From a virus (Duplodnaviria; Caudoviricetes): a DNA stretch of 64,000 nucleotides. How positions within the stretch are numbered: position 1 is the first letter of the stretch; the number at the start of each line of letters is the position of its first letter. A model generated the notes under the pieces. That model worked only from the letters and a program-made list of their open reading frames with translations. It had not been told where the DNA came from and did no database searches. Location of the stretch: positions 1 through 64,000 of the IMG/VR virus record IMGVR_UViG_2795386107_000001; one strand, given 5' to 3'. Shown here piece by piece: positions 37,950-64,000 of this stretch. Both the position numbers and the translations under genes were made by a program.

Positions 37950-38034
37950 TTCTGCTCTCTCCCTGATGCTGGGGTGCGGTTGACGTGCGTCGCTCCGCCC
38001 GGCCAGCACCGGGACAGCCTCAACGCGAGGCGGA

Positions 38035-38065
38035 ATGGAAAGGGGAGAGAGGGGTTAATGTCGCG
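38035..38065 (-). promoter_or_regulatory. Late-type promoter upstream motif before capsid (-10 atypical)
   Basis: CGCGACATTAA; no CANNNT at N14. Confidence 0.55.
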
Positions 38066-38174
38066 TGCTGCCCGCTCAGTTCGTCAAGAGCGGGCAGCAC
38101 ATAGGGTGTGACCTGCGGTTTCATCGATGTGGGGCCGGTTGCCCGCGGTCGTGGACGAGAGGCTGAGTCGCGAC

Positions 38175-47600: not shown

Positions 47601-50600
47601 GCGTTCCTCGTCGCCCTGGTCCTGGTCCTCCTCGCTGTCGCTGGTGTTGTCCGGGGCGTTGGCCTCGTCGCGGTTGTTCTCGTCGTCGCGGCGGTCGTTG
47701 CCGCCGTCGTCCTCGCCCCGCGCGATCCGGGCGGCGCGGCGGAACCGCTCGGCCGCGCGCTCCCCATCGGGGCCACCCAGTTCGTACATCTCCGCGAGGG
47801 AGTCGAGCCGGTCGGCGGCGTCGCGCAGCTCGGCGTCGGGGTCGTCGGAGTCCGCCGCGCGCCCCATGGCGTCGGTGACGTCGCGGATCTCTGGAAGATC
47901 GTCCCCGCCCGCTTCGTCGGTGGCCTGGCGCACCAGGCCGGACATGCGGTCGGTGCGGTCCTTGATGTCGCTCCGGCCGCTGACCGGGGTGGCCTCCGGC
48001 TCGTCGACCGCGGGCTCGTCGACGTCGGGAGTACCGTCGGTGCCGGTCGTGCTGGTCTCGTCGACGTTGGGCTCGGAACGCTCGTACCTGTGGTTGTCGG
48101 GGATCTCCTCGTCCGGGTAGCGCAGCCGCACTTGGGCGTCGGAGTTGTAGAAGCGCTCCTCACCGTCGTTGGTGACGATGCGGGTACGGCCGCGGCCGGT
48201 ACGCGCGGGCGGCTCGGCCACGGTGTGCGTACGGCCGTCGGCGTCGGTGTACCGGTCGCCCGGCTCCAGGTCGGCGGCGTTCCGCATCTGCGCCGGACGC
48301 AGGTCGCTGGTGTCGCGGCCTTCGGCATCGGCGAACATGTCCGGCGTGCCGAACTCGTCGGCAGGCCGGACCTCCGGGTTGTCCGGGTCCGCGGTGCTGT
48401 CCGCCTGACGGGTGGTCGGCTCGTCGACGTCGAAGAGGCCGCCGGGCTCCTCCCTGGTCTGCTTGGGCTTGGGCTCCTGCTTCGGGGCGCGGCCGGCGCG
48501 GCGGGCCTCTTCCGCTTCGAGGACCTGCAGGCGGGTGCGGTCAACACCGGACAGTTCCCCGCCGTTGGCCATCTCGCGGCCCATCAGGTCCACGATCTCG
48601 TCGCGAATCTCGCCATCGTCCATCGAGGACGGAGCCTTGGACCCCTCGGGGCGTACGGCGTCGAGCTGGTCGGACACCTCGTCCGGAGTCAGGGTGACGG
48701 TGTCGTTGCCTTCCTCGCCGTCTGCCGCGCTCTGGTCGCCGCCCTGGTCCTGGTCGTCGTTGCTGTCGTTGCTGTCGTTGCTGTCGTTGCTGTCGTCGCC
48801 GAGGTCGCCTGTGCCCGGGGTGTCGGCCGGCGGCTCGTCGTCGCCTCCGTCGCCCGCGCTGCCAGCGTCCGGGGTGTTGGTCTCCTCGGTGTCCGGCGCA
48901 TCGGCGTCCGGGGTGGCGTCGGTGGAGTCGCCGCCGTTGCTCTCCCACTCCTCGCGGCGGCGGCGCAGATCGGCCGCGGCCTCGTCGATGGCCTTGCGGT
49001 AGGCGCGGTATGCGCGCACCTCGGACGGGTCGGACTCCAGCCCTTCGCCGCCTTCCAGCGTCCATGCCCACTCCAGGAGTGCGCGGTGTACCTCGATGGG
49101 GCCCGTGACCTTGAGCGTGCCCTTACGGCCCGGCTTGGCCTCCTTGAGCGCCTTCCGGGTGTCCGGGTCCTCCATGGCCGCGGTCTCGTCGACGTTGAGG
49201 AAGTCGACGAGTGCCGCCGGCATGGTCAGCGTGACGAAGTCCTCGGGCTTGTCCCACGCGTACTTGAGCGGTTCGCCGGGCTCCTCCGCGTCCGCGGTGT
49301 CCTGGCTCTCCGTGTCGTCAGGTCGGATGCTGGCGAGGGTGTCGCTGACCTCGTCCTGGGAGAGGCGAACGGTGTCGTCGTGCTCCTGGTCGCTGTTCTC
49401 GTCGCCGAGGTCGCCGAGGTCGCCGAGGTCGCCGAGGTCGCCGGTGCTCAGGGTGTCGGCCGACTGTCCCTCGTCGCCTGTACCGCTGGCGTTGTCGGGC
49501 CCCGCGGTGTTCGTCTCCTCGGGGCCCGATGCGTCGGCGTCCGGGGTCGTGTCGGTGGAGTTGCCGTCACCGTTGTCGGTCTGCGAGGCGTCGTGCGCCG
49601 GGGGGTTGGGGGTCAGACGCGCGAGGGTGTCGCGCACCTCGTCCTCGGTGAGGTGAACGGTGTCGTCCCTCTCCGGCTCCGGGTTCTGCTCGTCCCAGCG
49701 CTGGAGGTTAGCCACGGCTTCGTCGACCGCGGCCTGCAGCGGTGCCCGCTCCTCGCGCCGCTCCTTGGCCATCGTCTCGCGGTCGTGCTTCTTGTACCGC
49801 TTCTTGTCGAGTTCGTCGGGGTCAATCTCGGGCTTGGCGTCGAGGTCGGTGATGCGGGCGACGACCTCCTCGAGCAGGTTGGCCCGTGCCCGTGCGTGGT
49901 CGATCTGCGGGGTGAGGTCTGCGGCTGCGTGTGCGGACTGGAGCAGGGCTATTTGCTCGTCCAGCTCGGGGACCTTGGCCCGGTCCGACTCCTGCAGGGC
50001 GGGCGCCTTGTCGAGAGCATTGCCAAGGCGGGTGATCATGCCCGACCCGGCGCCCTTCTTCTGGAGGTCTTCGACCGTGCGCTCAAAGTCGGAGTTCCGG
50101 AGGTCCGGGAAGCCGACGTGCGCGACGAGCCTGCCGTCCTCCTTCCGCTCCGTACGGACGCCGAAGTCCAGGCCGCGGAACTGGCCGATGACGTGCCACG
50201 GGCTCATGCCCTCGCGGTTGTGATCCAGGAGCCGGGCGGTCACCTGGCGGTGCAGCGCCTTGCCGGCGTCGGAGCGCTCGCCGTACGGGGAGCCGCCGAT
50301 GGTCATGGTGAAGCGGTCGCCGGCCTCTTGGATGCGGGGCAGAGCCTGCTCGCGGCGCTGGATGCCGTCGCGGGTGGCCTGGGATTCCTGGCGCAGCTCA
50401 TCGAGGGCTTCGGCGCGACGGATACGCTCGGCGGCCTCGTTGTGCTGGTCGATCTCAAGGTCCTTGAGACGGCGGCGGGCCTTCATGAGATGACTCATGT
50501 AGGGGTTGCCGCCCATCTCGGCTTCCATGGTTTCGTAGTCGAACTCGGCGCCGTCGATCTCCTGGACGACGTCGCTGGTGTCGCCCTCCGTCGGCTCCGG

Positions 50601-53600
50601 CCGCTGGATGTCGACCAGGCCCTCGGCCTTGGCGGCGACGAACCCGGCCTTCCAGCCGTCCATGGAGCCCTTGGTCCCGAAAATGTCGATCTCGACCTCG
50701 GGGTTCTGATTGCCGTAGCGCAGGATGCGGCCGTTGCGCTGCTCCATCTGCGCCGCGCCCCAGTCGAGGTCGACGTGCGTGAGGGAGATCATGCGGTCCT
50801 GGGCGTTCATGCCCGTGCCCGCGACGGCGCTGGAACCGATCAGGACCGAGATCTCACCTTCGCGGGCCTTGCGGAACAGCTCCGTCATGTCCTCGGGCTT
50901 GCCGGACTTCTTGGCGTCCTGGACAAAGGCGATCTTGTCGGCGGGGACGCCGCCGGTGACCATGAGCTGCTTGAGTTCGGCGTAGGCGTCGAAGCCGCCC
51001 TTGTTGTCGCTGTCCGGGACGCCTTCGTTCAGGAAGATCATCTGGAGGGCGCCGGGGACGGGGTGGTCCTCGTCGCTGCCGTAAGCGACCTTGTAGACGC
51101 GGTCCTTGGTGGCGTGGTACCGCTCGATGTGCCGGTCCGCGACGGCCTTGAGCTTGTTGCCCGCGGGGGCGTTGCCGTCGACGAGCCGCGGGTCCAGGGC
51201 CACGCTGGTGCCCTCGTTGGACACCGTGAGCATGTTGTCGTCGACCAGGGCGCCCTTGCGGGTGCGGATCTGCTGAGGCTCACCGTTGTGGATGGCGCGG
51301 CCGCGGGCGACGAGCCCCTTGAGACGCTTCTTCTGGTCCGGGGTCGCGTCGACCAGGATCAGGTTGTGGGTGCCGCCCTTGAGCTTCGGCCGGGGAATGC
51401 CGACGTCGTCGGCCCGCTTGGTGTCCGCGACCAGGCCCCACATGGTCTTCATGGCGCGCTTGTTGTGGAACTCGGAGAAGCGCTCCACGACGCGCAGGCC
51501 AGACCCGTCGGGGGCGTTCTCGATACGCAGGGTCTTGCGGCCGAAGGTGTTGGCCCACAGGTCCGGGGCGCCCGCCTTGTAGGCGTCGAGCACCCACGGC
51601 GCCGCGAACTGGAGCATGGTGAACTGCTCGCTGATGCTGTTGGACAGCGGCGTGCCGGTGGCGAGCGTGATGGTGGCGCGGCCGCCGCGGCGGCGGTGCA
51701 GGTCGGTGGTCTTCTGGTGCAGGTCGACGCCGCGGATGGACGCGGGGTCGCCGCCGGCCTCCTTGGAGCGGAAGCCAACGCCCTTGTAGCGGTGAGCCTC
51801 GTCGACGACGAAGTAGTCGAAGCCGAGGTCGTCCCAGTACGTCTCGCCCGGCTTCCGCATGGGCGCGGCGTTCTTGTTGATGTTCCGCTGGACCGTCGCG
51901 ATGCGCTGCTCGATCTTCGCGACGATGAACGGGTGGTTGGGGTTGTCGGCGTCCTCGTACTGGCGGTCAAGCTGCTCGCGCAGCGACTCCAGCTCCCGGA
52001 ACTCGTACTCCTCCTGAGCCTCCGGGCTCATCTTGATGGAGCCGAAGGCCTCTTCGGTGAAGATGACCAGGTCCGGCTTGTTGGCGCGCAGCCACTCCAG
52101 CGTGCTGGAGCGCCGGTCACCGGCCAGGTCTGCCGAGGTGATCAGGTGGATATCGGCGTTCGGGTACAGGTACCGCGCTTCGTCCGCCCACTGCTTCGCC
52201 AGGTGGTTGGGCACCACGGCCATGGGCTTTTCGATCTGCCCGGACGCCTTGAGCGCCTGGGTGCCCATGACGAGCGTTGAGGTCTTGCCGAGGCCCACCT
52301 CGTGGGCGAGGATCACGCCCCGCTCGAACTGCATCCGGGCGGCGCCGGCGAGCTGCCAGGAGTGCGGGGTCCTGTCGGGCGTGAAGCCTTCCAGGGTGGG
52401 CGACATGCCCTCGTACGAACGGACGACGTGCCCGTTCATGATGCGGTTGTAGGACTCAGTGAGGGTCGTCAGTCGCTCGGCGTTCGCCGTGGCGTACTTG
52501 GCGAACTCGGCCCGCATCTGGTCGGCCTTCTGCCGGATCAGACGGGAGGTCGTCTCGTCGACGTCCTTGCGCTTGTCGTCGTGGTAGACGGTCAGCGATC
52601 CGAAGCCGAGGACCGCGCGGGCGATCTCTACGGCGGACTTGCCCTTGGTGCCCTTCTCCGGGTTGGCCGGGACGCCGTACATGACGTTGTTGGCCTCGGG
52701 CACACGGCCGGTGTTGAGAATCCAGCCGTACCGGTCATCGTGCGCAACGCGCAGGGTCCGGTCGCCCAGGTACTCGCGCAGGAAGCCCTGCAGCAGCTCC
52801 GGAGGCGTCCAGTGTGCGCCCATCTCGGGCGTGAACTGGCCGATGGTCCGCTCCGGCGGCTGTACCGCCTCCAGCGCGGCCACGTTGACCGCGTACGCCG
52901 GGTCCTTCTCCGCGGCCTTGCGGGCGGCGTCGAGCTTGTCGCGGACGGCACCGGACAGGTAGGCGCTGGCCAGATCGAGGCGGCCGGTGGCCGGGTTGGT
53001 GAAGACCTCGTTACCGAGGCGCTTCAGCGCCTCCTGCGGGTCGACGTCGAGGAGGCGCGCGACTTCCCCGAGGTCCACGTCGCCGTGCGCGGCGACGACC
53101 GCGGCCAGGGCCGCCTTCGGGTCGTCGGTCGACGTCAACTGACGCCGACGGGCCGCAGCGCGCTCGGTGAAGATGCGGGAGAGGACCGGCTCACCGGTCT
53201 TGGCGTCCCACCGCTCCAGGGCGAGGACAGCCGCGGCGTCCGGGTCGGCTCGGAAGTAACCCCACGCCGTCGGGCGGCCGTTCTTGGTGCGGTGCTGGCC
53301 GGGCTTGGACAGCGGCCCGTACTGCTCGACGTAGGCGGCGTGCAGGTCGCGGAGCTGGGCGCGGAGGGCGTCGGCGCGCTCCTCCTCGTCGTTCTTGCGG
53401 TCCAGCTCGCGCAGTTCGGCGGCGACGTCGCGGAGCTGCATGAGGTCGCGGAGCTGGGCGGTGTTGCCGTCGGCCGGGTCGATGAGGACCGGCTCAGCGC
53501 CGTTGACGTGCTGGTAGAACTGGCCGTCGTCGCCCTCGTAGAGGCGGCCGGTCCAGTCGTTGGCGTGCTTCTCCCGGGCGGTCTGCAGGTGCACCGGGGG

Positions 53601-56600
53601 CCGGTCGTCGCCGTCGGGGTGCGGCTCGTAGCCGCGGCCGTCGGCCTTCGCCTTCTCAGCCATGTCCTCGAGCGCCTTGCGGAGCTGTTCGGCTGCCTTG
53701 GCCGGGTCGCCCTTAACGGTGACCTCCGGCCCGTACGGGCCGGACTGGGTGGTCAGCGTGCCGAGGATGTGCTCGGGGTGCTCGTCGAAGTAGGCGTTGA
53801 TGTGGTGCGGGGTGCCGTTGAGGTCCCGTTCGGGGGCGTCCAGCCATGAGGTGTCGGCCGGCTCGGTGCCGTCCTCACGGCGCCGGAACACGAGCACGTC
53901 GGTGGTGACCCCGGTGCCGGCGTCGTTGAAGACGCCGGAGGGCAGACGGATGGCGCCCACCAGGTCGCCGTACTTGGCCATCTGACGGCGGGCCTTGTCG
54001 CCCTTGGAGTCGAGCGTCTGCCGGGAGGTGATGACGGCCGTGATGCCGCCCGGACGGACGAGGGCGATCTCCTTGGTGACGAACCCGTTGTGCAGGCTCT
54101 CCGCCGGGTACCGCTTGTCATCGAACGGGACGCGGGCGAACGGCACGTTGCCGATCGCCGCGTCAAAGGTCCCCGGCCGGGCGTCGCTCTCCGCGAAGGA
54201 CTCGTTCAGGACGTTGGCGTGCGGGTAGATCGCCTGAGCGATCCGGGCCGTGGTCGGGTCGAGCTCCACACCGGTCAGGCGCGCACCGTCGGGGGCGACG
54301 CCGAAGAACGTGCCCGCGCCGGAACCGGCTTCGAGGACGTCGCCACGGTCGAACCCGAAGGCGCGCAGGCCATCCCACATCGCCTCGGCGATGGGCTGCG
54401 GCGTGTAGTGCATGGACAGCACGCCGCGGGACGCCTGCCGGAACTCAACCGGCGTCAGAACGCGCTGCAGCTCGCTGCGGATGTCGCTGTACTCGGACCA
54501 CCGCTCGTGGTCCTTGGCGAACTTGCCGTACCGAGTGCCGCCCTGCTGGTAGCGCGGTTCCTTCTCGTTCGGCTCGCTGGCGAAGATGATCGGCACCGAG
54601 CCCCACCCGGACCAGCGGGCGAGGATGCGCTTCTCCTCGTCGGTGGCCGGCCGGTTCTCGGCCTCCAGCTTCTTGAGGACCTTGATGGCCTCGACGTTGG
54701 CGGCCGCACGCGCGCGTGCGCCCTTGGGCGCGTCGGCCGGGTCCGGCCGGAACCGCGCTACGCGTCGTACATCGCGTCCCTGATCTCCTGCAGGTGCTGC
54801 TCCATCGGCGTCTGCTCGGGCGCCTTCTCCGCGCCCTCCTCCGGCTCGGGCAGAAGCTCCCTCAGAACCATCGCCGTCGCGTCCGCCCTGATCTGCTTGA
54901 GCCGGCCGACCCTCTCGTCGTAGCCCTCCGGCTCCGGCACCGTCTCCTCCAGCGCCTGCTCCGCGACCAGAATCCGGCTCTCGATCTCCCTGGCCTTCGT
55001 CTCCACGAACGCCTCCGGATCGTCCATCGCCGCCCACTCCTGCGGCAGGTACGTCCGCCAGTGATCCCGGACCGTCGGACTGAACATGTTCATCGTCGTC
55101 GCCTCCCAGCGCTGCACGGAGCGCGGCCTGCTGTGCCTCGATCTCCTCGCGGGAGATGACCTTCTGGTCGTCGTTCCCGCCATTCTTGCGGACTGCCTCA
55201 CGGGCTGACTCAATCGCGTGCAGTGCCACGTTGATGGAATTGAGTCGGGTCTTGGCCTTCGCCCGGTCCGACTTGTCCGCGTCGCGGTCCGCGGCCTGCA
55301 CGGACATGTCCCGCGACAGTTCTTCCGTCACCCGGTGCAGCTCCGCGAGGAGACCCTCGGGAATGACCAAGTTCCGGCCCTTGATGTGGTGGCCCTTCTT
55401 GCTGCTGGGCACCAGCGGGTTCACGCCGTCGTCCCAGCCGTACCGGTCCCGGAACAGGTGGAAGAGGTACTGGCGTTCCTCGGATGCGTTGGAGAGCCGG
55501 TCGCCGAGGCGGGCCGTCTGGTACAGCTCGACGAACATCTTCGGGACGAACACGCGCCGCTCACGGCCCCAGGTGCGCTCACCTCGGGTGTCCGGGTCCT
55601 GGTCGTAGGCGCGGACCAGCGCGGCCAGGGCGGCGGCTCGCGAAGGGTACGCCGTGTTGCCGTGGCCCCAGGAGTTCTTGCCCCAGGTCCAGCCGATCTC
55701 TCGGCGGTCGCGCCCGTAGCCGAGGTTCTGGTTGTAGTCGATGTAGCCGTACCCGGCGCCGCCGTCGATGCTGATTTGCCCGTTGGAGTCGGGGTTGTCG
55801 ACGCGGGCGAGGAGCTGTTCGACCTCGGGGGTGGTGTCCCGGCGGTTCAGTTCGGCCTCGATGGCGGCCATGCGTGCCTCGCGGGCCGCCTTGACGTCGT
55901 CCGACTCGTAGTTCGAGCGGCCGCGGCGCAGCTCGGTGTACTCGTCGAGCAGCTTCTTGGAGTCGACGGCGTCGGGGGTGTCCCGGTCCGTGATGGCCCG
56001 CTTCTCCCGCTCGCGTCGCTCCTGCTTGATGTCCTCCAGGCGGCCCTCGAGGACCCGCTGAGCCTCCGGGGACGCCTTGCGGAAGTCCCGCTTGATGAGT
56101 TCGTTGTATTCCTCGGACAGGGCTTCGTCGTCGAGGTCAGCGACCGGCGGCCGGTCGGCGATCTGCTCGGCGCGGCGCCGCTGCTGCTCACCGACGATCG
56201 CGTCGTGCCGCTTCTGCAGGGCGGCGCGTACGGTCTGCTCGGCCTCGTGGTCGTCGCCGGCGGCCTGGTGCAGGGTGACCCGGTGGGCGACGGCGTCGCG
56301 GGCCTTGGCGAGGTCCTCCTCGGCCATCGTGGTCAGGTCGGTGTTCTCGTCGACCAAGGCCTGGGAGCGGCGGCGGCGCTCGCTGTAGATGGCGCGCTCG
56401 ACGTCGTTCGCGGGCTCGCCCCTGCGGGAGCCGTACGTGCCGCGTTCCTGCTGCGACTCCTTGACGCGGGCCTCGATGTCGGCGTCGCTGAGCTGGGTGG
56501 CGTCGCGGGCCGCGGCTTCGTCCCGCTCCTTCCGCCGGCGCTTCTGCTCCTCGGTGATCAGGTCGATCTCGCTGTCGAGGCGCCGACGGTTGGCTTCGGA

Positions 56601-58778
56601 GCGGGAGGTGCGGTATTTCGTGTACCGCTCGTTCTTCATCGTGTTCAGCCGGGCGTCGGTGGCGTCGCTGATCTCGCGGCGCAGCGCGGCAGTTTCGTCG
56701 CCTCCGTCCCCGGGTGCGTCGGGGGTGCCCTGGCTGGTCTCGTCGGTGACGTGGACGTTGCGGCCCTGGCGGGCGAGATTGCTCAGGACCTCCGAGATGC
56801 GTTCGTCCCGGGTGGCGTCGGTCATGTTCGCCTGGGTCTGCCAGGAGCCGACGGGGCCCATCGTCGGGGCCCACTTCACGGCCTTGACCTTGCCAACCGC
56901 GTCGTAGTCCCGCTGGTCGCCCTTGATGGTGCCGCGGAAGACCATGACGCGCTTGGCGGGCTTGCCGTCCTTGCCCGGCTTCATCACCCACGCCGCGGTG
57001 ACGCGGTCCCGCTTCTGCGGGTTCTGCGCGGCAAGGTGGAGGCGTGCCATGACCTGGGCGCCCTGCGGGGGGTACTGCGGGACGGGGACAACGACGCCGT
57101 TGATCGTGGCCTTCGGCGGGTAGCCGCGCTCGCTGGTGGCGGCGACCTGCCCGTCGGGGCCGTACAGGGTGATCGCGCCGCCGTCGTTGACGAAGTGGTA
57201 GCCGTCGACGCCGTCGACGGGCCGTGCGCCGTCCGGGAGGGCCGGGGTGGGCTCCGGCTGTGCCTCCGGCTGCTGGGGGGCGTCGGGGGCGTTCGGGGCC
57301 TGGGGCGCGGCTGCCGGGGCGTTCTGGCCGGCGGGGGCGCCACCGCCCTGTTCCAGCTGGAGCTTGGCGAGGGCCTCGTCGACGACCTCGCGGAAGGACT
57401 TGTTGTCCTCGGACCGCCACTTGCTCACGGTGACGTGGGAGAGGTCCAGCGGCTTGCCGTCCTCGCCCTTGAGGTTGGAGGCGACGAGGAAGCGGCCGAA
57501 GCGCTGTGCTTCCTGCTGGGTCTCGAAGCGGGGGTGCAGGGTGAAGCCACTGCCGGTGGCGACGAGTCGCCAGTTGCCGTCTCCGTCCCGGTGGGTGACG
57601 AGCTGTCCGCGTCCGACGAGCTTGAGGCGGTCGTCGGCGATGAGGCTGTCCAGCTTCTGGAGCGCGGCGCGGGACGTGGGGTCGGTGTGCTGGCTCAGGC
57701 GCTCGCGGATGCCCTGCCAGTGCGTGCGGACGTCCTGCAGGGTGGTGAACCGTCGCCCGTCCGCGGCCGGGGCCGCCGGGGTAGCCGGGTTGGTGGTCGG
57801 CGCTGGGGTGGCGTCGAACTCCTTGCGGGCTCGGATGATGGCGCCCTGGATGTTCTCGCCCTTGGTGGAGCGCCAGTCACGGGCGGCGCGGTCGAGCTGC
57901 GGGTCAGAGAAGTCGAACGGCTGGCCGAACTTGGTGATCTGCCCGTTGACGGCGGTCTTGTCGAGGTGGTCGGCGAACCGGGCGGCGTCCTGCGGGGTGT
58001 CGAAGTCGCCGGCGCCGTCCATGCGCTGTCCGGTGCCGGTGGCCGTCAGGTACCAGCGACCGTTGTCGTCACGGAGGATCGCGAAGCGGCCGTTCGGGGT
58101 CACCTGCAGGTCGTCGTCGTAGGCAACCGAACGCAGGAAGGTGGCCATCTCCGGCCTGGTACCGGGCTGCTGGGCGAGCTGCGTGAAGTGGCGGCGGACG
58201 GCAGCGGTGTCGGCGTACCGGGCTCCGGCTGCGTTCTGCTGGTTGGGAAGCGCGTCGAGGTTGACGGGGTGGGCGCCGTCTTCCGGCTCGTCCTGGTCGT
58301 CCTCGCGGTCCGGGCCGTCGCCCTCGTCGTCGCCGATCGGGCGGCCCTGGTCGTCGGCGTTGTGGGGGTCGTTGGGGGTGTCCGGGTCGCCGTCGTCGTC
58401 CCGGGCCACGCCGTTGCCGCGGCGCGGGTCCTCGTGCCGACGCTCGTCCTCGGCTGCGACCTTGTTCTCGTCCTCGGTCGGCGCGGTGCCGTCGGGACGG
58501 GCGACCATCGTCACCCACTTGGCACTCGTGGTGTGCCGGCGTCCCCGGAACTCGTTGGGGCCGCTTTGGTCCTGGACGAGGACGCGGTCGTGCGGAAGGG
58601 CGCGCACGACGCGCGCGAGCTTGCCGCCCCAGAGCCTGACCGTTCCACCCGTCTCGATGAAGCGGCCCTTGCTGTCGCGGGGGTGCAGGGCAGGGTTCCA
58701 CGGCCGACGCGTGACCTTGACCTCGAGGTCGCGATTCAGGTCCTGCGACTCAGCCTGTGCAGTGGGGCGATTCAGCAT
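41637..58778 (-). CDS. Giant DarB-like polyvalent protein: N6-adenine methyltransferase + SNF2 helicase + repeated unknown domains (~5,713 aa)
   Basis: HYTPQP, VLEAGSGAG, GVELDP, IGNVPF (MTase); HEVGLGKT, VDEAH, ATGTP, GTGMN, QRNGRILRYGN (SF2); start set at the leaderless ATG 58778. Confidence 0.9.
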   Translation of the reverse strand: MLNRPTAQAESQDLNRDLEVKVTRRPWNPALHPRDSKGRFIETGGTVRLWGGKLARVVRALPHDRVLVQDQSGPNEFRGRRHTTSAKWVTMVARPDGTAPTEDENKVAAEDERRHEDPRRGNGVARDDDGDPDTPNDPHNADDQGRPIGDDEGDGPDREDDQDEPEDGAHPVNLDALPNQQNAAGARYADTAAVRRHFTQLAQQPGTRPEMATFLRSVAYDDDLQVTPNGRFAILRDDNGRWYLTATGTGQRMDGAGDFDTPQDAARFADHLDKTAVNGQITKFGQPFDFSDPQLDRAARDWRSTKGENIQGAIIRARKEFDATPAPTTNPATPAAPAADGRRFTTLQDVRTHWQGIRERLSQHTDPTSRAALQKLDSLIADDRLKLVGRGQLVTHRDGDGNWRLVATGSGFTLHPRFETQQEAQRFGRFLVASNLKGEDGKPLDLSHVTVSKWRSEDNKSFREVVDEALAKLQLEQGGGAPAGQNAPAAAPQAPNAPDAPQQPEAQPEPTPALPDGARPVDGVDGYHFVNDGGAITLYGPDGQVAATSERGYPPKATINGVVVPVPQYPPQGAQVMARLHLAAQNPQKRDRVTAAWVMKPGKDGKPAKRVMVFRGTIKGDQRDYDAVGKVKAVKWAPTMGPVGSWQTQANMTDATRDERISEVLSNLARQGRNVHVTDETSQGTPDAPGDGGDETAALRREISDATDARLNTMKNERYTKYRTSRSEANRRRLDSEIDLITEEQKRRRKERDEAAARDATQLSDADIEARVKESQQERGTYGSRRGEPANDVERAIYSERRRRSQALVDENTDLTTMAEEDLAKARDAVAHRVTLHQAAGDDHEAEQTVRAALQKRHDAIVGEQQRRRAEQIADRPPVADLDDEALSEEYNELIKRDFRKASPEAQRVLEGRLEDIKQERREREKRAITDRDTPDAVDSKKLLDEYTELRRGRSNYESDDVKAAREARMAAIEAELNRRDTTPEVEQLLARVDNPDSNGQISIDGGAGYGYIDYNQNLGYGRDRREIGWTWGKNSWGHGNTAYPSRAAALAALVRAYDQDPDTRGERTWGRERRVFVPKMFVELYQTARLGDRLSNASEERQYLFHLFRDRYGWDDGVNPLVPSSKKGHHIKGRNLVIPEGLLAELHRVTEELSRDMSVQAADRDADKSDRAKAKTRLNSINVALHAIESAREAVRKNGGNDDQKVISREEIEAQQAALRAALGGDDDEHVQSDGPGSLADVPAAGVGGDGRSGGVRGDEGQGDREPDSGRGAGAGGDGAGAGGLRREGRPAQADQGGRDGDGSEGASARAGGGRGEGARADADGAAPAGDQGRDVRRVARFRPDPADAPKGARARAAANVEAIKVLKKLEAENRPATDEEKRILARWSGWGSVPIIFASEPNEKEPRYQQGGTRYGKFAKDHERWSEYSDIRSELQRVLTPVEFRQASRGVLSMHYTPQPIAEAMWDGLRAFGFDRGDVLEAGSGAGTFFGVAPDGARLTGVELDPTTARIAQAIYPHANVLNESFAESDARPGTFDAAIGNVPFARVPFDDKRYPAESLHNGFVTKEIALVRPGGITAVITSRQTLDSKGDKARRQMAKYGDLVGAIRLPSGVFNDAGTGVTTDVLVFRRREDGTEPADTSWLDAPERDLNGTPHHINAYFDEHPEHILGTLTTQSGPYGPEVTVKGDPAKAAEQLRKALEDMAEKAKADGRGYEPHPDGDDRPPVHLQTAREKHANDWTGRLYEGDDGQFYQHVNGAEPVLIDPADGNTAQLRDLMQLRDVAAELRELDRKNDEEERADALRAQLRDLHAAYVEQYGPLSKPGQHRTKNGRPTAWGYFRADPDAAAVLALERWDAKTGEPVLSRIFTERAAARRRQLTSTDDPKAALAAVVAAHGDVDLGEVARLLDVDPQEALKRLGNEVFTNPATGRLDLASAYLSGAVRDKLDAARKAAEKDPAYAVNVAALEAVQPPERTIGQFTPEMGAHWTPPELLQGFLREYLGDRTLRVAHDDRYGWILNTGRVPEANNVMYGVPANPEKGTKGKSAVEIARAVLGFGSLTVYHDDKRKDVDETTSRLIRQKADQMRAEFAKYATANAERLTTLTESYNRIMNGHVVRSYEGMSPTLEGFTPDRTPHSWQLAGAARMQFERGVILAHEVGLGKTSTLVMGTQALKASGQIEKPMAVVPNHLAKQWADEARYLYPNADIHLITSADLAGDRRSSTLEWLRANKPDLVIFTEEAFGSIKMSPEAQEEYEFRELESLREQLDRQYEDADNPNHPFIVAKIEQRIATVQRNINKNAAPMRKPGETYWDDLGFDYFVVDEAHRYKGVGFRSKEAGGDPASIRGVDLHQKTTDLHRRRGGRATITLATGTPLSNSISEQFTMLQFAAPWVLDAYKAGAPDLWANTFGRKTLRIENAPDGSGLRVVERFSEFHNKRAMKTMWGLVADTKRADDVGIPRPKLKGGTHNLILVDATPDQKKRLKGLVARGRAIHNGEPQQIRTRKGALVDDNMLTVSNEGTSVALDPRLVDGNAPAGNKLKAVADRHIERYHATKDRVYKVAYGSDEDHPVPGALQMIFLNEGVPDSDNKGGFDAYAELKQLMVTGGVPADKIAFVQDAKKSGKPEDMTELFRKAREGEISVLIGSSAVAGTGMNAQDRMISLTHVDLDWGAAQMEQRNGRILRYGNQNPEVEIDIFGTKGSMDGWKAGFVAAKAEGLVDIQRPEPTEGDTSDVVQEIDGAEFDYETMEAEMGGNPYMSHLMKARRRLKDLEIDQHNEAAERIRRAEALDELRQESQATRDGIQRREQALPRIQEAGDRFTMTIGGSPYGERSDAGKALHRQVTARLLDHNREGMSPWHVIGQFRGLDFGVRTERKEDGRLVAHVGFPDLRNSDFERTVEDLQKKGAGSGMITRLGNALDKAPALQESDRAKVPELDEQIALLQSAHAAADLTPQIDHARARANLLEEVVARITDLDAKPEIDPDELDKKRYKKHDRETMAKERREERAPLQAAVDEAVANLQRWDEQNPEPERDDTVHLTEDEVRDTLARLTPNPPAHDASQTDNGDGNSTDTTPDADASGPEETNTAGPDNASGTGDEGQSADTLSTGDLGDLGDLGDLGDENSDQEHDDTVRLSQDEVSDTLASIRPDDTESQDTADAEEPGEPLKYAWDKPEDFVTLTMPAALVDFLNVDETAAMEDPDTRKALKEAKPGRKGTLKVTGPIEVHRALLEWAWTLEGGEGLESDPSEVRAYRAYRKAIDEAAADLRRRREEWESNGGDSTDATPDADAPDTEETNTPDAGSAGDGGDDEPPADTPGTGDLGDDSNDSNDSNDSNDDQDQGGDQSAADGEEGNDTVTLTPDEVSDQLDAVRPEGSKAPSSMDDGEIRDEIVDLMGREMANGGELSGVDRTRLQVLEAEEARRAGRAPKQEPKPKQTREEPGGLFDVDEPTTRQADSTADPDNPEVRPADEFGTPDMFADAEGRDTSDLRPAQMRNAADLEPGDRYTDADGRTHTVAEPPARTGRGRTRIVTNDGEERFYNSDAQVRLRYPDEEIPDNHRYERSEPNVDETSTTGTDGTPDVDEPAVDEPEATPVSGRSDIKDRTDRMSGLVRQATDEAGGDDLPEIRDVTDAMGRAADSDDPDAELRDAADRLDSLAEMYELGGPDGERAAERFRRAARIARGEDDGGNDRRDDENNRDEANAPDNTSDSEEDQDQGDEERRQRRDGDLDGGAADPDGGGADTPDAPSDDEENGNSSDAPDNADDQQDEPDAEDQDNEDEQDDRNRRRRRRRRNGGNGGPGGPGGLGGPGLPHLNLPDLNVPAATGTGGDGEGHAPNGRGRRSPVRHGDVDSLRRAWRNGEGLTAAEDTPERRAALAQAAEREGMVLSPGGGLVTWPEPQDDGTTLWRFAQARNGTNLPGLTLRTDNPEEARALASRFEEITGSDGQPFDWHQPWGPSTVSQWRDSEGRNLQRALHAARDDFEQQRAAETTDAPVLPADLTELDDDALDALVSQPLSQDDMMRVAAEMDRRDNPDPVIRNAVPDTPPENAEEAERRGKAMDEALGFGNADITRPRRTQEDIIRAAFADFDEARYQQAIEETNGYFFNRKHKYGDNRPDERSLFSGGELAKFGRWREYASEELINWYDANGGRVTYNQFKLQYRDNDRRDREIFEEEQRRQAEEEQRQQADVGQAPAEPATTEPEPYDPAKPRFTDEEALRDHIRNGRLDEVPEDQRADEPSPEERGEIADAESTQLSDGGRLLIYGNEAARAGVGRGQRFNVALPGSMQPLFRDGFHNPERAREVARVLEGITDADGNPFPWDAPDAAERARAFRSADGNTLFGEAAERLNGVGNVYEPWNSDRGQALHHRTWNQQEAEWNTREEEAGYSIPVDPADLRPGDEISFPMATSRGQNISPRDEYVGTVHATVTGEGEPFRYRSEFSAVGNPQLHRYPAEGSWTNQYGEHANIDEAFPNLGVVRRRPRPDEASTRDDGRDDRSTNETTPQAEPTSTPEPAARPEPTPDRAPAEPEPATPDVPAEEPQGEPEPVGGQPANWARVSDLVPGDMVRMDGRRRNGRAVTRSGYVFTGPVRVEVTRNGRTEHMWRTYVTENPDGTGKRGHVFTPLNATAARAEAPDDTVPGSPASGAQSAVQTGSLPDRVPTDRNGRGLFPGSTVTGVDGLRSREGTVTGATSTTVSVRWDNDDTADGLTPTTLTVTGGDRPDGWTASGQRVTPGHIVTDSDGALLGPVDEVNGDRVTITTAEGTTTRSAGDLRVAGEVRDDTNPATAPVTGLDDPAAADLKEDDVVVLDLDGTLTTVAVTGTQRDGDRVTIDYADTTTGEIGQIDVDAATVLPRAQGADGSAPDLGPEDAPDTPDDLTVHEPPHRVEPVTGPTVDPELTTGDRDVIGDLADGPDDDLDAQQGAVRITTDLPVTPEQAAALAAQLRDSADPSTPEGRAALRAADHLDRAVGRTPPAELGRPRPSNASQVAEDDTIALPDTRGNGVTVYRVRDVQDGPGGVRSLLLEGEDGRTRRRVVHGAMPLWQLGEPQPEGDNTALVPAGPNSPALPPAGAHRDPNPAPQADADRIIRDHARSLAVRIIDEAIAGTEPPGDIHALREQIAQRLTPEALQEARTAAREDAQAALDAAAVNGPERSAAMLALGAVAQDSHTATVRAALRTINDLEPLPDESDEDLAARARDLLSLIPDRIAGTPNGPDTDGDADVNRTVAGHVDDAVNAVLQQLQAAGVDPGDAERIARAITRRMDGSRQATARQIARRVAAASPQAGRQPGLLARIVAALVRLAKRIALLVKAGAEKIAEKWRDARERIARLRAFLGRLARRVRDWPESRRLARLHRALDLPEADGESLAARVSHWAGLLPEPGRFGQAQRRVTWWQPTTWAQLAAGRLPGRSDRVRWSPDQAADGGPGPTGLRHMAALRAAGGDVDQAVTRRLADSLGDDFGSDPHGTLQHADDYVATTERRLVNLQAARTSSTIPDDPDLEVEIAAARMEAAAARREWENLRSRYAAAVPDAVAAALAEIRDMGPGGNAGIVFGPDSTPDAERAVRGVQRLVPRSWLNTPAARRVTAVDGDAGRYEPDGQRITVADLADEGLGTAGYALAQHLAQHLDDLDAAQRIFWFTQTHTGRPGARRMRRSALSRILSRQQTQPDTGDTLARSVQSMFNGDWYLDDDLRAFLLGLLATR
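48756..48795. repeat. 9-bp tandem repeat (gtcgttgct x4; Asp-Ser-Asn)
   Basis: Read directly; in frame within the giant gene. Confidence 0.85.
49401..49443. repeat. 9-bp tandem repeat (gtcgccgag x4; Gly-Asp-Leu)
   Basis: Read directly; in frame within the giant gene. Confidence 0.85.
54758..55093 (-). CDS. Overprinted gene nested in the giant ORF (TnpV-like, 111 aa)
   Basis: GGGAGG RBS 8 nt before ATG; protein-like sequence MNMFSPTVRDHWRTYLPQEW...YDERVGRLKQIRADATAMVLRELL; the host frame here is a Gly/Asp/Arg linker. Confidence 0.72.
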   Translation of the reverse strand: MNMFSPTVRDHWRTYLPQEWAAMDDPEAFVETKAREIESRILVAEQALEETVPEPEGYDERVGRLKQIRADATAMVLRELLPEPEEGAEKAPEQTPMEQHLQEIRDAMYDA

Positions 58779-58785
58779 GCCGCGG

Positions 58786-58816
58786 ACCATGTAGAGCGCG
58801 GGTGCTTAGCGTCGCG
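58786..58816 (-). promoter_or_regulatory. Late-type promoter motif before giant gene
   Basis: CGCGACGCTAA-N14-CATGGT-N7-ATG. Confidence 0.7.
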
Positions 58817-58935
58817 GCCTCGTGGCCGGGTACGGACCGGCTACTTCGGCGTGAGGAGGCGGAACGGCGAGCCAGCCGGGGAATCCGAACCCGCCGACGG
58901 CGAGTGTGGATCTGCCGACCTTGCTGGTGCGGGTG
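58816..58935 (-). pseudogene. Degenerate duplicate of the 3' end of the 61443-61655 gene
   Basis: TRTSKVGRSTLAVGGFGFPGWLA vs TRTSKVGRAIFAVGWFGFSGWFA; DNA similarity to 61419-61539. Confidence 0.85.
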
Positions 58936-61660: not shown

Positions 61661-64000
61661 TTACTCCTTCGGGTCGGTGACGTAGTGGAGGCGGCATCGG
61701 CAGTTGATCGTGAGGGCGATCGGTGCGAATGGGTCGCCGGGGTAACGGAGGCTGGAGCCGTCGACGGTGTACGGGGTGCCGACGGGGAGCGTCTTGCCGT
61801 TCAGCGCCTTGTGGGCGGGGCGTACGCGGTCGTCTCCGCGGGTGATCCAGGTTCGGACGACGCCGGGGCCGGCGTGTTCGGCGGCGGCGTCTGCTGCGCC
61901 GTTGATGGTCGAGATGGCGCAGGTCTCGGCGATCCGGGCGATCAGGGCGGGCTCTGCGGAGTGGTAATGGCTGACGACGGCGTGCTCCAGGTCGCCCACG
62001 TCCTTGGCGTCGTTCTGCGCGGCGGCGAGGGCGTCGGCCAGTTCGGTGAGGAACGCGGTCACGGCCTCGCCGGCGAACGCCGCGGTGACGATGGCGGCCG
62101 CGGCCGCGGAGGGGGGAACGTCGTCCGAGCCGGTGAGGGCCTGCCCCACCTTGCGGGCGGTGGCGATGGCTGCCTGTTGGAGGATCGGCGTCAGGGTCTG
62201 GGAGGTCTCCTCAGCCCAGCGGGCGGCGCTGACGACGCGGTTCTGGTCGAGGTCGGCGTCGACGTGCCGGACGTCGTTGTCGTTCTCCGGCTGCCAGTAG
62301 CGGGTGTACTTGCGGATCTTCGGTGCGCGGAGCCGGGCCAGGATGACGCCTTCCTGGCGCGCCAGGAGGGCGGTGACGGCGGCTGCCACGGCCATGGAGA
62401 GGGCGTCGAAGTCGTCGTCTGTGACCTCGAATCCGTCGTCCTGGGGGAGTGCCTTGCTCTCGATCGTGTCGCGGGCGGCGGCGACGTCCTCGGCGGCCTC
62501 GCCGGGCTGGGTCTGCTCTTGGGCGTTCCGGGCGCGGTCGACGTCGGCGGCCGCATCGCCCGGGGCGGTGGCGGTGTTCGTGGCGCGTGCTGAGGCGACG
62601 GCGTCCGCGGCGGTGCTGCCTGCGGGCAGTGCGAGGGGGGCCTGCGCTCGTGCTGCGGTGACGGCGGCCGCCGCGTCCTGGCCGGGATCGACGGCGCGCG
62701 CGGCTGCCACGTCCGCGGCCGCGGAGTCTTCCGGAGCGGCGCCCTGGGGGAGCGGGGCGCCGGTGGGCGCCGCGCCGGGCATTCCGCCGGCGGCCGGGTC
62801 GGGACCGAGGCCGAGAGCCGCGGCGTCCTGCGGGTTGGCGGGTATGGGGGCCTTCTGCGGGCTGATCCACAGGGCGCGGGACTGCGGGACGTTGAAGGCT
62901 TCCCGGCCTGCGATCTCCCGGTACTCGTCGATGGTGATGAGGCCCTTGTCGAACTCCTCCCGGGCTTCTTGCCGGGCCTGGCGGCGGGGGAACTCGAGGG
63001 CCTGGACGCGGGAGGTGTCGTACCGGACGGTCCAGCCGTCGTCCAGCTCAGGGTCGAACCCGGAGGCCACCAGGTTGAGGTGGGGCAGTTCGGTGTGGTC
63101 CCAGAAGTTCCACTCTTCCCGGTCCGCGTTGGCGTAGGTGCGCTCGGAGGCGTTGCCGACGATGCTCTCGGGCACGCCGAAGGCGGCCAGGATCTCGCCC
63201 TTGGAGATGCCGGCCAGCGTCTCGTACGCCATCTCGCGCGGCCGGGCGGAGGTGTCGACGTATGTGACACCGCCGGGGCCGGTGCCGACGAGGGTGAGCT
63301 GCCCGGCGTTGTGCGCGCCGGGGGCCAGGCGCTTCTGGATGCGGTCGACTTCGCGCGGGTCGACGCCGTCCAGGTCGATACCGACAATTCCGCCCGGTCT
63401 GCCGTCATTGTCAATAAATGAGATGTTGTATGTGCGCGCCTTGACGTCGAGGTCGACGGACAGGCCCGCGGCCTCAAGCGGGGTGACACCGCAGAACGGA
63501 TCGGTGGGGTGGGGGTCCCTGATCCAGATGACGTGTTTCGGCTTCAGCTCCCGGACCTGACCGGCGTAGTTGGTGAACTCGAAGTGCTTGACGTAGTCGC
63601 CGTTCTCGTCGTCCGGGATGATCTGGACGCGGTCTGGTGGCAGCAGATCGAGCCGGGTGAGGGTGCCGCCCCGTGAGTAGGTCTTCTCGATGAACACGCC
63701 CTTCTTCGACAGAAGGAGCTGCGCGCTCAGCCGCTTCTTGAAGACGTCGGCGGTCTCCAAGGGGTTGGACTTCTTGTTCAGCAGGCGAAGAAGCGGGTGG
63801 TCGTCGAGGGTCTCCTCGAAGCGCCGCTCGTCGCCTCCCCGGCCTATTTGGATCGGTAGGGTACTGGCGTGCTTGCTGATCGCCTCGATGGACTTGAAGG
63901 TCCAGATGCTGCGTTCGTAGCCCTCGATGATGACGCGCTCGAGGTCCCAGCCGTCCGCGCGGCCTGGTGTCCCCCAGACGTTCGTGACGCCGGCGTACGT
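61661..64000 (-). CDS. Portal protein fused to C-terminal MuF/minor head domain (5' end outside window)
   Basis: Frame open to window edge; HPLLRLLN, GVTPL, EILAAFGVP portal motifs; WITRGDDRVRPAH...PGDP...INCRC MuF motif. Confidence 0.92.
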   Translation of the reverse strand, partial: TYAGVTNVWGTPGRADGWDLERVIIEGYERSIWTFKSIEAISKHASTLPIQIGRGGDERRFEETLDDHPLLRLLNKKSNPLETADVFKKRLSAQLLLSKKGVFIEKTYSRGGTLTRLDLLPPDRVQIIPDDENGDYVKHFEFTNYAGQVRELKPKHVIWIRDPHPTDPFCGVTPLEAAGLSVDLDVKARTYNISFIDNDGRPGGIVGIDLDGVDPREVDRIQKRLAPGAHNAGQLTLVGTGPGGVTYVDTSARPREMAYETLAGISKGEILAAFGVPESIVGNASERTYANADREEWNFWDHTELPHLNLVASGFDPELDDGWTVRYDTSRVQALEFPRRQARQEAREEFDKGLITIDEYREIAGREAFNVPQSRALWISPQKAPIPANPQDAAALGLGPDPAAGGMPGAAPTGAPLPQGAAPEDSAAADVAAARAVDPGQDAAAAVTAARAQAPLALPAGSTAADAVASARATNTATAPGDAAADVDRARNAQEQTQPGEAAEDVAAARDTIESKALPQDDGFEVTDDDFDALSMAVAAAVTALLARQEGVILARLRAPKIRKYTRYWQPENDNDVRHVDADLDQNRVVSAARWAEETSQTLTPILQQAAIATARKVGQALTGSDDVPPSAAAAAIVTAAFAGEAVTAFLTELADALAAAQNDAKDVGDLEHAVVSHYHSAEPALIARIAETCAISTINGAADAAAEHAGPGVVRTWITRGDDRVRPAHKALNGKTLPVGTPYTVDGSSLRYPGDPFAPIALTINCRCRLHYVTDPKE

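What the first reader, a model, noticed from the sequence alone, without database searches (positions are those of the whole stretch)
54758..55093. Overprinted TnpV-like gene nested in another frame just before the methyltransferase domain
Seen: same strand, different frame, strong GGGAGG RBS, a 111-aa helical globular-looking product with GC-rich third positions. Over exactly this interval the giant ORF reads as G/D/R/A-rich off-frame-like sequence yet stays open. From memory the product resembles TnpV-family proteins found near methylase/helicase genes of mobile elements. Inference: a captured partner gene (regulator, chaperone or inhibitor of the MTase-helicase) kept as a dual-coding region.
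Basis: partly seen in the sequence, partly recalled or inferred. Interest (0 to 1): 0.76.

Follow-up and report, generated by a model that had tools for sequence, protein, structure and literature searches.

The report
Small gene nested inside giant phage gene
A 111-residue helical protein gene sits complete, in another reading frame, inside a 5,717-residue phage head-module gene, and comparison with dozens of related actinobacterial elements indicates that both frames are kept by selection, a rare, well-supported case of dual-coding DNA in bacteria.

Summary
At 54758-55093 (minus strand), a 111-aa ORF (B) with GGGAGG-8 nt-ATG and its own TAG lies in the +1 frame of the 5,717-aa ORF. There the codon signature flips wholly to B, and the giant frame reads an open, G/D/A/R-rich stretch predicted disordered.

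It is not an assembly error or chance. Of 30 loci in the first set, 22 have the same A-B-C layout, and junction indels are multiples of three. The methylase-helicase part (C, a P1 DarB homologue) has no start codon of its own.

In other Actinomycetes, C starts shortly upstream of B and reads through it: 14 of 16 lineages are open against 5.1 expected (P = 2e-7). B's synonymous sites are slowed and biased to G. That bias is absent where B and C are separate genes.

B belongs to a family of 1,219 clusters with only sub-threshold similarity to Pfam TnpV. It is almost always found with C.

Best reading: a real nested gene pair, a small ancestral partner protein overprinted by the linker of a DarB-like polyvalent protein. 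"Captured" is probably the wrong direction. Translation and binding are untested.

First readers of this scan noted the same nested gene in six other genomes.

The parts
54758..55093 (-). Nested gene B: 111-aa helical, TnpV-like protein. ATG at 55091-55093, TAG at 54758-54760. It lies in the +1 frame relative to the giant ORF.
   Evidence: - Translation.
- Codon signature.
- AF2 pLDDT 87.7.
- Homologues: 24 plasmid records, 21 Streptomyces genome loci, and 1,219 cluster representatives at E<=1e-3.
55102..55107 (-). Shine-Dalgarno GGGAGG of B, 8 nt before its ATG. In the giant frame it is read as part of Leu-Gly-Gly.
   Evidence: Sequence. It is conserved as GGGAGG-type or GAAGGGG-type in 24 of the 25 Streptomyces loci printed. 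L017, a remnant locus, has GAGAGG.
54756..55109 (-). Giant-frame linker, about residues 1228-1345 of the giant protein. It is G/D/A/R-rich, predicted disordered, and encoded by the -1 frame relative to B.
   Evidence: - Sequence and alignment.
- pLDDT <50 for residues 99-216 of the folded 351-aa segment, with helical flanks at 75-90.
41637..58790 (-). Giant ORF, 5,717 aa: a DarB-like polyvalent protein. It consists of the N-terminal part A, the linker, the methylase-helicase part C, and a long C-terminal part.
55110..58790 (-). Part A: the N-terminal ~1,227 residues. It has no Pfam match. Its end (..KVISREEIEAQQAALRAAL) is conserved right up to B's ribosome-binding site.
50500..54755 (-). Part C: a conserved N-terminal helical region (RFRPDP..ANVEAI..ARWSGWG), an N6-adenine methyltransferase and an SNF2 helicase. 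It is a homologue of phage P1 DarB and has no start codon of its own.
   Evidence: - Pfam.
- hhalign to P1 DarB: probability 99.35%, E = 6.3e-21.
- Start-codon survey.
61661..63760 (-). Context: portal protein with a C-terminal MuF-like domain, upstream of the giant gene.
36657..40370 (-). Context: prohead protease (S78) fused to NUDIX at 38175-40370, and major capsid protein at 36657-38009, both downstream of the giant gene.

Best explanation
This is a genuine same-strand nested gene pair.

How it is read:
- Ribosomes that start at the beginning of the giant DarB-like gene read straight through the interval.
- There they make a roughly 118-residue disordered Gly/Asp/Ala/Arg-rich linker. It joins the N-terminal part (A) to the methyltransferase-SNF2 helicase module (C).
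- Other ribosomes start internally at GGGAGG-N8-ATG. They read the +1 frame and make a separate 111-residue helical protein (B), which ends at its own TAG three bases before the first conserved codon of C.

Origin:
- B is the older frame. It belongs to a large family of small proteins (remote TnpV relatives) that in Actinomycetes is nearly always encoded with this methylase-helicase.
- In most lineages C starts a few codons to a few dozen codons upstream of B and reads across it. The Streptomyces prophage or plasmid lineage has extended that N-terminal region by about 1,230 residues.

What is shown and what is inferred:
- Shown: the anatomy, its conservation, and selection on both frames.
- Inferred: that both products are made, and that B works with C. 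By analogy with P1 DarB and its helper proteins, B could be an accessory subunit or an assembly or packaging helper of the virion-delivered anti-restriction enzyme. Nesting would then guarantee co-transcription and co-inheritance.
For: 1. B is a real protein.
- The codon signature switches to its frame.
- AF2 gives pLDDT 87.7 and pTM 0.69.
- A profile search finds 1,219 representatives at E<=1e-3, and the best 150 are 88-260 aa.
- SD, start and stop are conserved.

2. The giant frame is needed.
- In 22 of 30 loci of the first set, A and C are in one frame that is open for about 3.7 kb upstream of B and on through C.
- Junction indels are +3 nt and +36 nt.
- No ATG/GTG/TTG in the giant frame lies between early B and C. 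In the L021-L030 group there is none at all inside B.
- Three independent DNA runs span the stretch with 0 gaps.

3. The pattern holds outside Streptomyces.
- B = C+1 frame in 27 of 30 loci and in 13 of 14.
- The C frame is open across all of B in 26 of 30 and in 12 of 14.
- The two exceptions among the 14 have a C gene that itself carries a TGA or is split.
- A conserved C-frame N-terminal peptide begins upstream of B.
- The one full-length C locus that the B profile missed (G390) has a diverged 235-aa B-like ORF in the C+1 frame, all but its first 65 nt inside the C ORF.

4. Statistics.
- Among 16 lineage representatives, 14 are open against 5.09 expected, Poisson-binomial P = 2.4e-7.

5. 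Selection on the second frame.
- Four-fold-site divergence of B is 0.198, against 0.417 (A) and 0.314 (C). In the second group it is 0.125, against 0.232 and 0.301.
- Per-position divergence in the overlap is flat at 0.186/0.207/0.183. The flanks show 0.253/0.230/0.362 and 0.132/0.091/0.304.
- B's synonymous codons are biased to G, z = 7.1, against a null from 165 windows with sd 1.25 and maximum 2.76. The bias holds in both halves of B.
- The bias is absent where B and C are separate genes with stops in the alternative frame: L008 z = 0.08 and L062 z = -1.9.

6. The linker is predicted disordered exactly over the overlap.

7. C is a DarB homologue lying between portal and protease/capsid genes.
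Against: - There is no direct evidence of translation of either frame. The only RNA-library contig over B's start (54942-55243) comes from a metatranscriptome that may contain DNA.
- A single open alternative frame is expected in 24-32% of cases.
- The loci are phylogenetically related. The pairwise divergence counts use non-independent pairs and are not a formal dN/dS test.
- The negative control for the G bias rests on one lineage (L008/L062) plus two decaying loci.
- In the pTC1-like lineage the only C-frame start upstream of B is a GTG without a visible ribosome-binding site, so how C starts there is unclear.
- Two database proteins (P0163, P0164) have B fused in frame to C. They may hint at another way of expressing C, although both end in garbled sequence that suggests indel errors.
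- No promoter-like or terminator-like site was found at 54300-56000. B therefore has no sign of a transcript of its own.
- The function of B is not shown.
Confidence: 0.78

Rival explanations
1. C is made mainly, or also, as a B-C fusion. Ribosomes that start at B's ATG would slip -1 near the end of B, or RNA polymerase would slip, and so enter the C frame. The openness of the giant frame would then be incidental.
For: - C lies in the -1 frame relative to B in 27 of 30 and 13 of 14 loci.
- C has no start of its own.
- Two database proteins have B fused in frame to C.
- One locus (L034) has B and C in one frame, separated only by TAG.
Against: - There is no X_XXY_YYZ heptamer in B's frame in the window or in 36 of 44 loci. 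The eight hits are G/C-only and lie mid-gene.
- No homopolymer run is visible in the junction sequences.
- The alternative frame is open, and the G bias is present, over the first half of B as well. A late slip would not require that.
- A conserved C-frame peptide starts upstream of B.
- Both fused proteins end in out-of-frame-looking sequence. L034's C carries a TGA.
Confidence: 0.08
2. Gene-call artefact. A, B and C are three ordinary genes, the giant frame is merely open by chance in G+C-rich DNA, and A ends and C starts by signals that I did not recognise.
For: - Long shadow ORFs are common here, for example a 1,948-aa ORF on the opposite strand.
- 24% of windows of this length are open in this frame.
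- Annotators of relatives split B and C in several plasmids.
Against: - There is no stop for A and no ATG/GTG/TTG for C.
- A and C share a frame in 22 of the 24 loci that have an A-end match.
- Junction indels are multiples of three.
- Lineage statistics give P = 2.4e-7.
- B's synonymous sites are slowed and G-biased.
Confidence: 0.06
3. Relic. The giant read-through is functional, but in this Streptomyces lineage B is no longer translated and survives only because its DNA is constrained by the linker frame.
For: - Within Streptomyces, B's residues diverge about as fast as its synonymous sites. Amino-acid difference is 0.228 against four-fold-site difference 0.198.
- B and linker identities are similar, 0.58-0.63 against 0.51-0.59.
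Against: - SD, ATG and stop are kept in all intact loci across 54-86% identity.
- B's codon signature is intact.
- Residues conserved class-wide (H11, W12, P17, Y58, A72, L77) are kept.
- A low-complexity disordered linker would hardly preserve a foldable +1 frame.
- B persists as an intact ORF even where C is destroyed (L003, L017).
Confidence: 0.06
4. Sequence error. Two compensating indels put a normal in-frame domain out of frame, or they join two genes.
For: None found.
Against: - The same arrangement is found in 22 of 30 loci.
- Three independent runs cover 54300-55600 with 2, 13 and 36 substitutions and 0 gaps.
- B has its own stop.
Confidence: 0.01

Closest known systems
Phage lambda Rz/Rz1 (spanin genes).
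   Same: A complete small gene, with its own start and stop, lies in the +1 frame entirely inside a larger same-strand phage gene. The two products work together.
   Different: - Here the host gene is a 17-kb polyvalent protein gene.
- The nested gene appears to be the older one.
- The host frame over the overlap is a disordered linker.
- Whether the products interact is not shown.
Phage P1 DarB, and the methylase-helicase dyad of polyvalent proteins (Iyer et al. 2017, PMC5512222; passages read).
   Same: - Part C aligns to P1 DarB residues 44-397 with hhalign probability 99.35%.
- It carries the N6-methylase plus SNF2 helicase dyad.
- It sits next to the portal gene in a head module, as darB sits next to prt in P1.
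   Different: - It is 5,717 aa, against 2,255 aa for DarB.
- It has about 1,230 aa in front and about 2,950 aa behind.
- It contains a nested gene.
- The paper's main text has no occurrence of 'TnpV', 'overlapping' or 'frameshift'.
P1 Ulx, a small head protein that works with DarB (PMC12810830; passages read).
   Same: It is a small protein encoded next to the DarB gene and needed for the same anti-restriction activity. This is a functional analogy for B.
   Different: There is no sequence similarity (hhalign probability 0.5%). ulx lies downstream of darB as a separate gene.
TnpV of Tn4451-type elements (Pfam PF14198).
   Same: - It is a small helical protein of mobile elements.
- Some B-family members match positions 23-111 of the 111-position profile.
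- 13 of 68 members hit at E<=0.01.
- Nearest ESM Atlas clusters are auto-named TnpV family.
   Different: - The window protein has no hit, and no member that I scanned reached the 27-bit cut-off.
- TnpV is described beside TnpX-type serine recombinases and was only postulated to aid excision (PMC3158075; passage read).
- B is tied to a methylase-helicase instead.

Membership tests
Pfam TnpV (PF14198) | A score at or above the curated cut-off (27 bits) against the family profile. | tested here: not met
   - Window B: no hit at E<=1 and none in the six-frame search at E<=10.
- Best relatives: 24.9 bits and 26.4 bits.
- 13 of 68 family members hit at E<=0.01.
Pfam TnpV (PF14198) | Genomic setting beside a TnpX-type large serine recombinase in a mobilisable transposon. 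| not tested
   In every locus I examined B lies with a methylase-helicase. I did not search the neighbours for serine recombinases.
DarB-like methylase-helicase dyad of polyvalent proteins | An N-terminal helical region followed by an EcoKI/TaqI-like N6-adenine methyltransferase, homologous to P1 DarB. | tested here: met
   hhalign of alignment A5 against P1 DarB gives probability 99.35%, E = 6.3e-21 over 331 columns. Pfam N6_Mtase, Eco57I and Methyltransf_25 hits are weak.
DarB-like methylase-helicase dyad of polyvalent proteins | An SF2/SNF2 helicase fused C-terminally to the methylase. | tested here: met
   SNF2-rel_dom E = 7.3e-9, ResIII, and Helicase_C.
DarB-like methylase-helicase dyad of polyvalent proteins | Encoded with phage packaging or head genes (virion delivery). 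| tested here: met
   Gene context is met: the gene lies between portal/MuF and the protease and capsid genes. Actual packaging cannot be tested here.
Nested same-strand overlapping gene pair (Rz/Rz1 type) | A complete ORF with its own ribosome-binding site, start and stop, in another frame wholly inside a larger gene. | tested here: met
Nested same-strand overlapping gene pair (Rz/Rz1 type) | Both frames under selection. | tested here: met
   - Open-frame statistics: P = 2.4e-7.
- Slowed four-fold sites.
- Flat per-position divergence.
- G bias z = 7.1 against null sd 1.25.
- Caveat: related sequences, and no formal dN/dS test.
Nested same-strand overlapping gene pair (Rz/Rz1 type) | Both products made in the cell. 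| not testable with these tools
   The only data are one RNA-library contig over B's start. There are no ribosome-profiling or proteome data.

The most novel reading that the evidence does not exclude
Nesting of a TnpV-like gene inside the leader or linker of DarB-like methylase-helicase genes may be an ancient, class-wide and near-obligate dual-coding module of actinobacterial plasmids and prophages. In this reading the two reading frames are mechanistically coupled. Ribosome traffic on the long frame and internal initiation on B's site would set the ratio of enzyme to small partner. The small protein would bind the enzyme, for example to hold it inactive or to load it for transfer or packaging. 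The same DNA would also have let an upstream gene fuse to the enzyme by reading across the intervening gene.
Probability: 0.3. Interest if true: 0.82.

Novelty: new variant of a known kind. Interest (0 to 1): 0.68.

Why it matters
Long same-strand overlaps with evidence of selection on both frames are rare in bacteria and their elements, and annotation pipelines usually discard them. In the public records seen here, either the giant ORF or the small gene is annotated, never both.

This case is conserved across a bacterial class, so it offers a natural system to study three things:
- how two frames share about 330 bases;
- how a disordered linker can be written over a folded protein;
- how genes can fuse across an intervening gene.

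It also points to an unrecognised, near-obligate small partner of DarB-like anti-restriction enzymes. That matters for understanding how phages and plasmids of antibiotic-producing Streptomyces evade restriction.

My literature searches found no description of this nesting (and the text search of PMC5512222). Subscription-only papers and supplements were not searchable.

Tried and rejected
- TnpV membership. The window protein gives no hit against Pfam, NCBIfam or PHROGs. Only relatives give sub-threshold TnpV hits. I therefore call it 'TnpV-like, remote' and do not file it as a member.
- Structure matches. Foldseek against PDB found nothing below E = 1. A profile search of PDB sequences found nothing. 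PADLOC found nothing for B.
- Phage records. tblastn of B found no match in 50,697 records.
- Ulx analogy by sequence: rejected.
- An ATGA stop/start overlap with a third frame at B's start. It is present in the window but not in the L021-L030 group, so I dropped it.
- -1 frameshift signal: none found.
- Internal promoter or terminator motifs: none found.
I did not use the remaining fold job as a substitute for docking, because the tool returns no contacts.
I used the search for related loci, the genome search and the fetch from genomes instead.
- A viral-contig scan with the L039 protein found nothing.
- A search of 401 Actinomycetota genomes with the TnpV profile gave two sub-threshold hits, which I did not follow.
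- RNA evidence. Most X19 pieces are short and unlike the stretch. Only one 302-nt contig fits, so I treat it as weak.
- Rows dropped. L003 and L017 (truncated remnants) were left out of the clustering and open-frame statistics. L047 (a second copy beside L043) was not analysed. L026 was kept in the clustering but was not a representative.
- Supplements of papers were closed and may hold gene lists that bear on TnpV or DarB neighbours.
Full report
**What is in the window**

The minus strand carries one ORF of 5,717 codons, 41637-58790. Inside it, on the same strand and in another frame, an ORF runs from the ATG at 55091-55093 to the TAG at 54758-54760. It encodes 111 residues. GGGAGG lies 8 nt before the ATG.

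A sliding count of G+C by codon position shows the usual Streptomyces-type signature in the giant frame on both sides, with third position 0.9-0.98. Between about 55100 and 54760 the signature moves completely to the nested frame (third position 0.94-0.96, second about 0.40). The giant frame's 'third' position falls to about 0.40.

Over this stretch the giant protein reads as Gly/Asp/Arg/Ala-rich sequence.

**Is it more than chance?**

For one locus, not by itself. In the rest of the giant gene, 24% of 112-codon windows have no stop in the equivalent alternative frame. Given B's residues and the local codon usage, the chance of an open frame is 0.32. The comparative data decide the question.

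**Relatives in Streptomyces**

tblastn of B found 24 actinobacterial plasmid records. A scan of one genome per species found 21 Streptomyces loci with 54-86% identity.

I mapped B, the last 225 residues before it (A-end) and the first 355 after it (C-start) onto 30 loci: the window, 8 plasmid loci and 21 genome loci.
- 22 loci have the window's layout. A-end and C-start are in one frame, and B is in the frame one base ahead of C. The giant frame is open from about 3.7 kb upstream of B to the end of the fetched DNA.
- B keeps its own ribosome-binding site, start and stop.
- The stop lies 3-9 nt before the conserved RFRP..ANVEAI start of C in most loci.
- Where lineages differ in length at that junction, the differences are +3 nt and, in L016, +36 nt.

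There are three exceptions among loci that are related to the window's type.
- L003 and L017 have an intact B, but C is cut to a remnant. In L003 this lies beside an IS5 transposase.
- L026 has a one-base deletion just after B's stop, which puts C out of frame.

In the giant frame, no ATG, GTG or TTG lies between the first 56 nt of B and the conserved start of C. The one early GTG has AGGA directly abutting it. In the L021-L030 group there is no such codon inside B at all. So C cannot start on its own, and A has no stop. The long frame must be read through.

Three independent public DNA runs cover 54300-55600 in single contigs with 2, 13 and 36 substitutions and no gaps. This excludes an assembly error.

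**Relatives outside Streptomyces**

In plasmids of Paenarthrobacter, Nocardioides, Microbacterium and Nocardia, and in a second type of Streptomyces plasmid, B lies directly before the methylase-helicase gene. It is always one frame ahead of it.

A profile of B found matches in 15 of 401 sampled Actinomycetes genomes. In all 14 loci analysed, C follows on the same strand.
- 13 of 14 have B = C+1.
- 12 of 14 have the C frame open across all of B.
- The two exceptions (L034, L039) are loci whose C gene itself contains a TGA or is split. They are decaying copies.

Searching the same 401 genomes with a profile of C found 17 genomes.
- All 15 genomes with B are among them.
- One further genome holds only a fragment.
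- The last (G390) has a diverged 235-aa B-like ORF in the C+1 frame that starts 65 nt before the C ORF's ATG and otherwise lies inside it.

In several lineages the C frame begins with an ATG right after an in-frame stop, 76-170 nt upstream of B. It encodes a conserved peptide (MARR..QIDGQLSLESLW....QPDLFSIL..). No further start codon occurs before C's conserved region (L038, L041, L042, L043).

B nested in the 5' part of the methylase-helicase ORF is thus the common state in this class. The Streptomyces head-module genes have a much longer N-terminal part.

One lineage is different (L008 and its metagenomic relative L062). There C has its own ATG at B's stop (TGATG or TAAATG), and the alternative frame over B has four stops.

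**Statistics**

I clustered B at 60% identity and took one locus per cluster, giving 16 lineages. Fourteen have the alternative frame open, against 5.09 expected from B's residues and local codon usage (Poisson-binomial P = 2.4e-7). For Microbacterium alone the chance is 0.003, with 184 codons.

**Selection on the second frame**

- *Four-fold sites.* B's four-fold degenerate sites differ less between Streptomyces loci than those of the flanks. In group 1 (66 pairs) the values are 0.198 against 0.417 (A) and 0.314 (C). In group 2 (36 pairs) they are 0.125 against 0.232 and 0.301. B's residues do not evolve more slowly than C's.
- *Per-position divergence.* In the overlap it is flat (0.186, 0.207, 0.183). 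A shows 0.253, 0.230, 0.362 and C shows 0.132, 0.091, 0.304.
- *G bias.* B's synonymous choices are strongly biased to G-ending codons, which give Gly, Asp, Glu, Ala or Val in the long frame. Observed 67, expected 41.8 (z = 6.8). With usage from the whole giant gene, z = 7.1. The null from 165 windows has mean -0.01, sd 1.25 and maximum 2.76.
- *Where the bias holds.* It holds in both halves of B, and in nearly all overlapping lineages at z = 2.8-9. L044 is weak at 1.7.
- *Where it is absent.* It is absent in the non-overlapping lineage: L008 0.08, L062 -1.9.

These counts use related sequences and non-independent pairs. They are not a formal test, and the negative control is one lineage.

**The two products**

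With an alignment of 25 sequences, B folds with pLDDT 87.7 and pTM 0.69 into five helices. It has no match in the PDB by fold or by sequence.

The giant-frame segment 1130-1480 folds into confident helices on both sides. Residues 99-216 of the segment have pLDDT below 50 and no secondary structure. These correspond to about 1228-1345 of the protein, which is exactly the overlap.

**What the families are**

*Part C.* It aligns to phage P1 DarB with hhalign probability 99.35%. It carries methyltransferase and SNF2 helicase domains. The gene lies between a portal/MuF gene and the prohead protease and capsid genes.

This fits the 'methylase-helicase dyad' of polyvalent proteins, whose archetype DarB is a virion protein that protects injected DNA from type I restriction (PMC5512222, passages read). 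That the window's protein is packaged is inferred from context only.

*Part B.* It belongs to a large family of small proteins. A profile search found 1,219 representatives at E<=1e-3 and 771 at <=1e-10, and the best 150 are 88-260 aa.

Its link to Pfam TnpV is remote.
- The window protein has no hit.
- 13 of 68 members hit at E<=0.01, and none reaches the cut-off.
- The nearest ESM Atlas clusters are auto-named TnpV family.

The role of TnpV itself is only postulated (PMC3158075, passage read). P1's small DarB helper Ulx (PMC12810830, passages read) is not similar to B.

**How it most likely works**

- *Shown:* two complete reading frames share 336 bases, the arrangement is old and widespread, and both frames bear marks of selection.
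- *Inferred:* ribosomes on the long frame make a flexible spacer in front of the DarB-like module, and internal initiation makes B.
- *Inferred, with about even odds:* B acts with C. This rests on near-obligate co-occurrence and on two database proteins in which B is fused in frame to C. Both of these end in garbled sequence and may be indel artefacts.

I found no frameshift signal that would give a B-C fusion, but I cannot exclude a minor product of that kind.

**Novelty**

Nested same-strand genes are known in phages (lambda Rz/Rz1, recalled). A nested partner gene inside DarB-like polyvalent genes, with the small gene as the older frame, was not found in my searches.

First readers of this scan noted the same thing in six other genomes, and none was followed up.

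Noticed in passing
L035-L041, L045, L046, L063 (C-frame starts upstream of B): The methylase-helicase ORFs of non-Streptomyces lineages begin with a basic stretch and then GQLSLESLW, AQLSLWG or QPDLFS(I/L). From recall this resembles the QL[SD]LF sliding-clamp-binding motif. It could instead be a transfer or packaging signal.
   Followed up: no
L043/L047 (G198:C7:149454-150339): Two B-like matches lie about 350 nt apart on the same strand before one C gene. This may be a tandem duplication of the small gene.
   Followed up: no
L003 (S. hirsutus plasmid) and L017: B survives as an intact stand-alone ORF, with the last ~36 codons of A before it. C is cut to a frameshifted remnant, next to an IS5 transposase in L003.
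   Followed up: partly
P0163, P0164 (database proteins): B is fused in frame to the start of C without a stop. Both proteins end in out-of-frame-looking sequence, so their contigs may carry indel errors. If real, they are natural B-C fusions.
   Followed up: partly
window 54942-55243: A 302-nt contig from a root metatranscriptome library (run X19) matches with one mismatch and spans B's start codon. DNA carry-over cannot be excluded.
   Followed up: partly
window 46434-52280 (+) and 55218-59906 (+): ORFs of 1,948 and 1,562 codons lie on the strand opposite the giant gene. These are typical shadow ORFs of G+C-rich coding DNA and a reminder that openness alone means little here.
   Followed up: no
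window 38175-40370 (-) and 61661-63760 (-): The prohead protease (S78) is fused to a NUDIX domain. The portal protein carries a C-terminal MuF-like domain.
   Followed up: partly
PMC9815147 (passages read): In Streptococcus suis, mobilisable elements that carry a TnpV gene insert specifically into the snf2 gene of conjugative elements. This is a second, unexplained link between TnpV-type genes and SNF2 genes of mobile elements.
   Followed up: no
window 58790 and upstream: The giant ORF's first ATG has no obvious Shine-Dalgarno sequence in the 20 nt before it. A second ATG follows four codons later.
   Followed up: no
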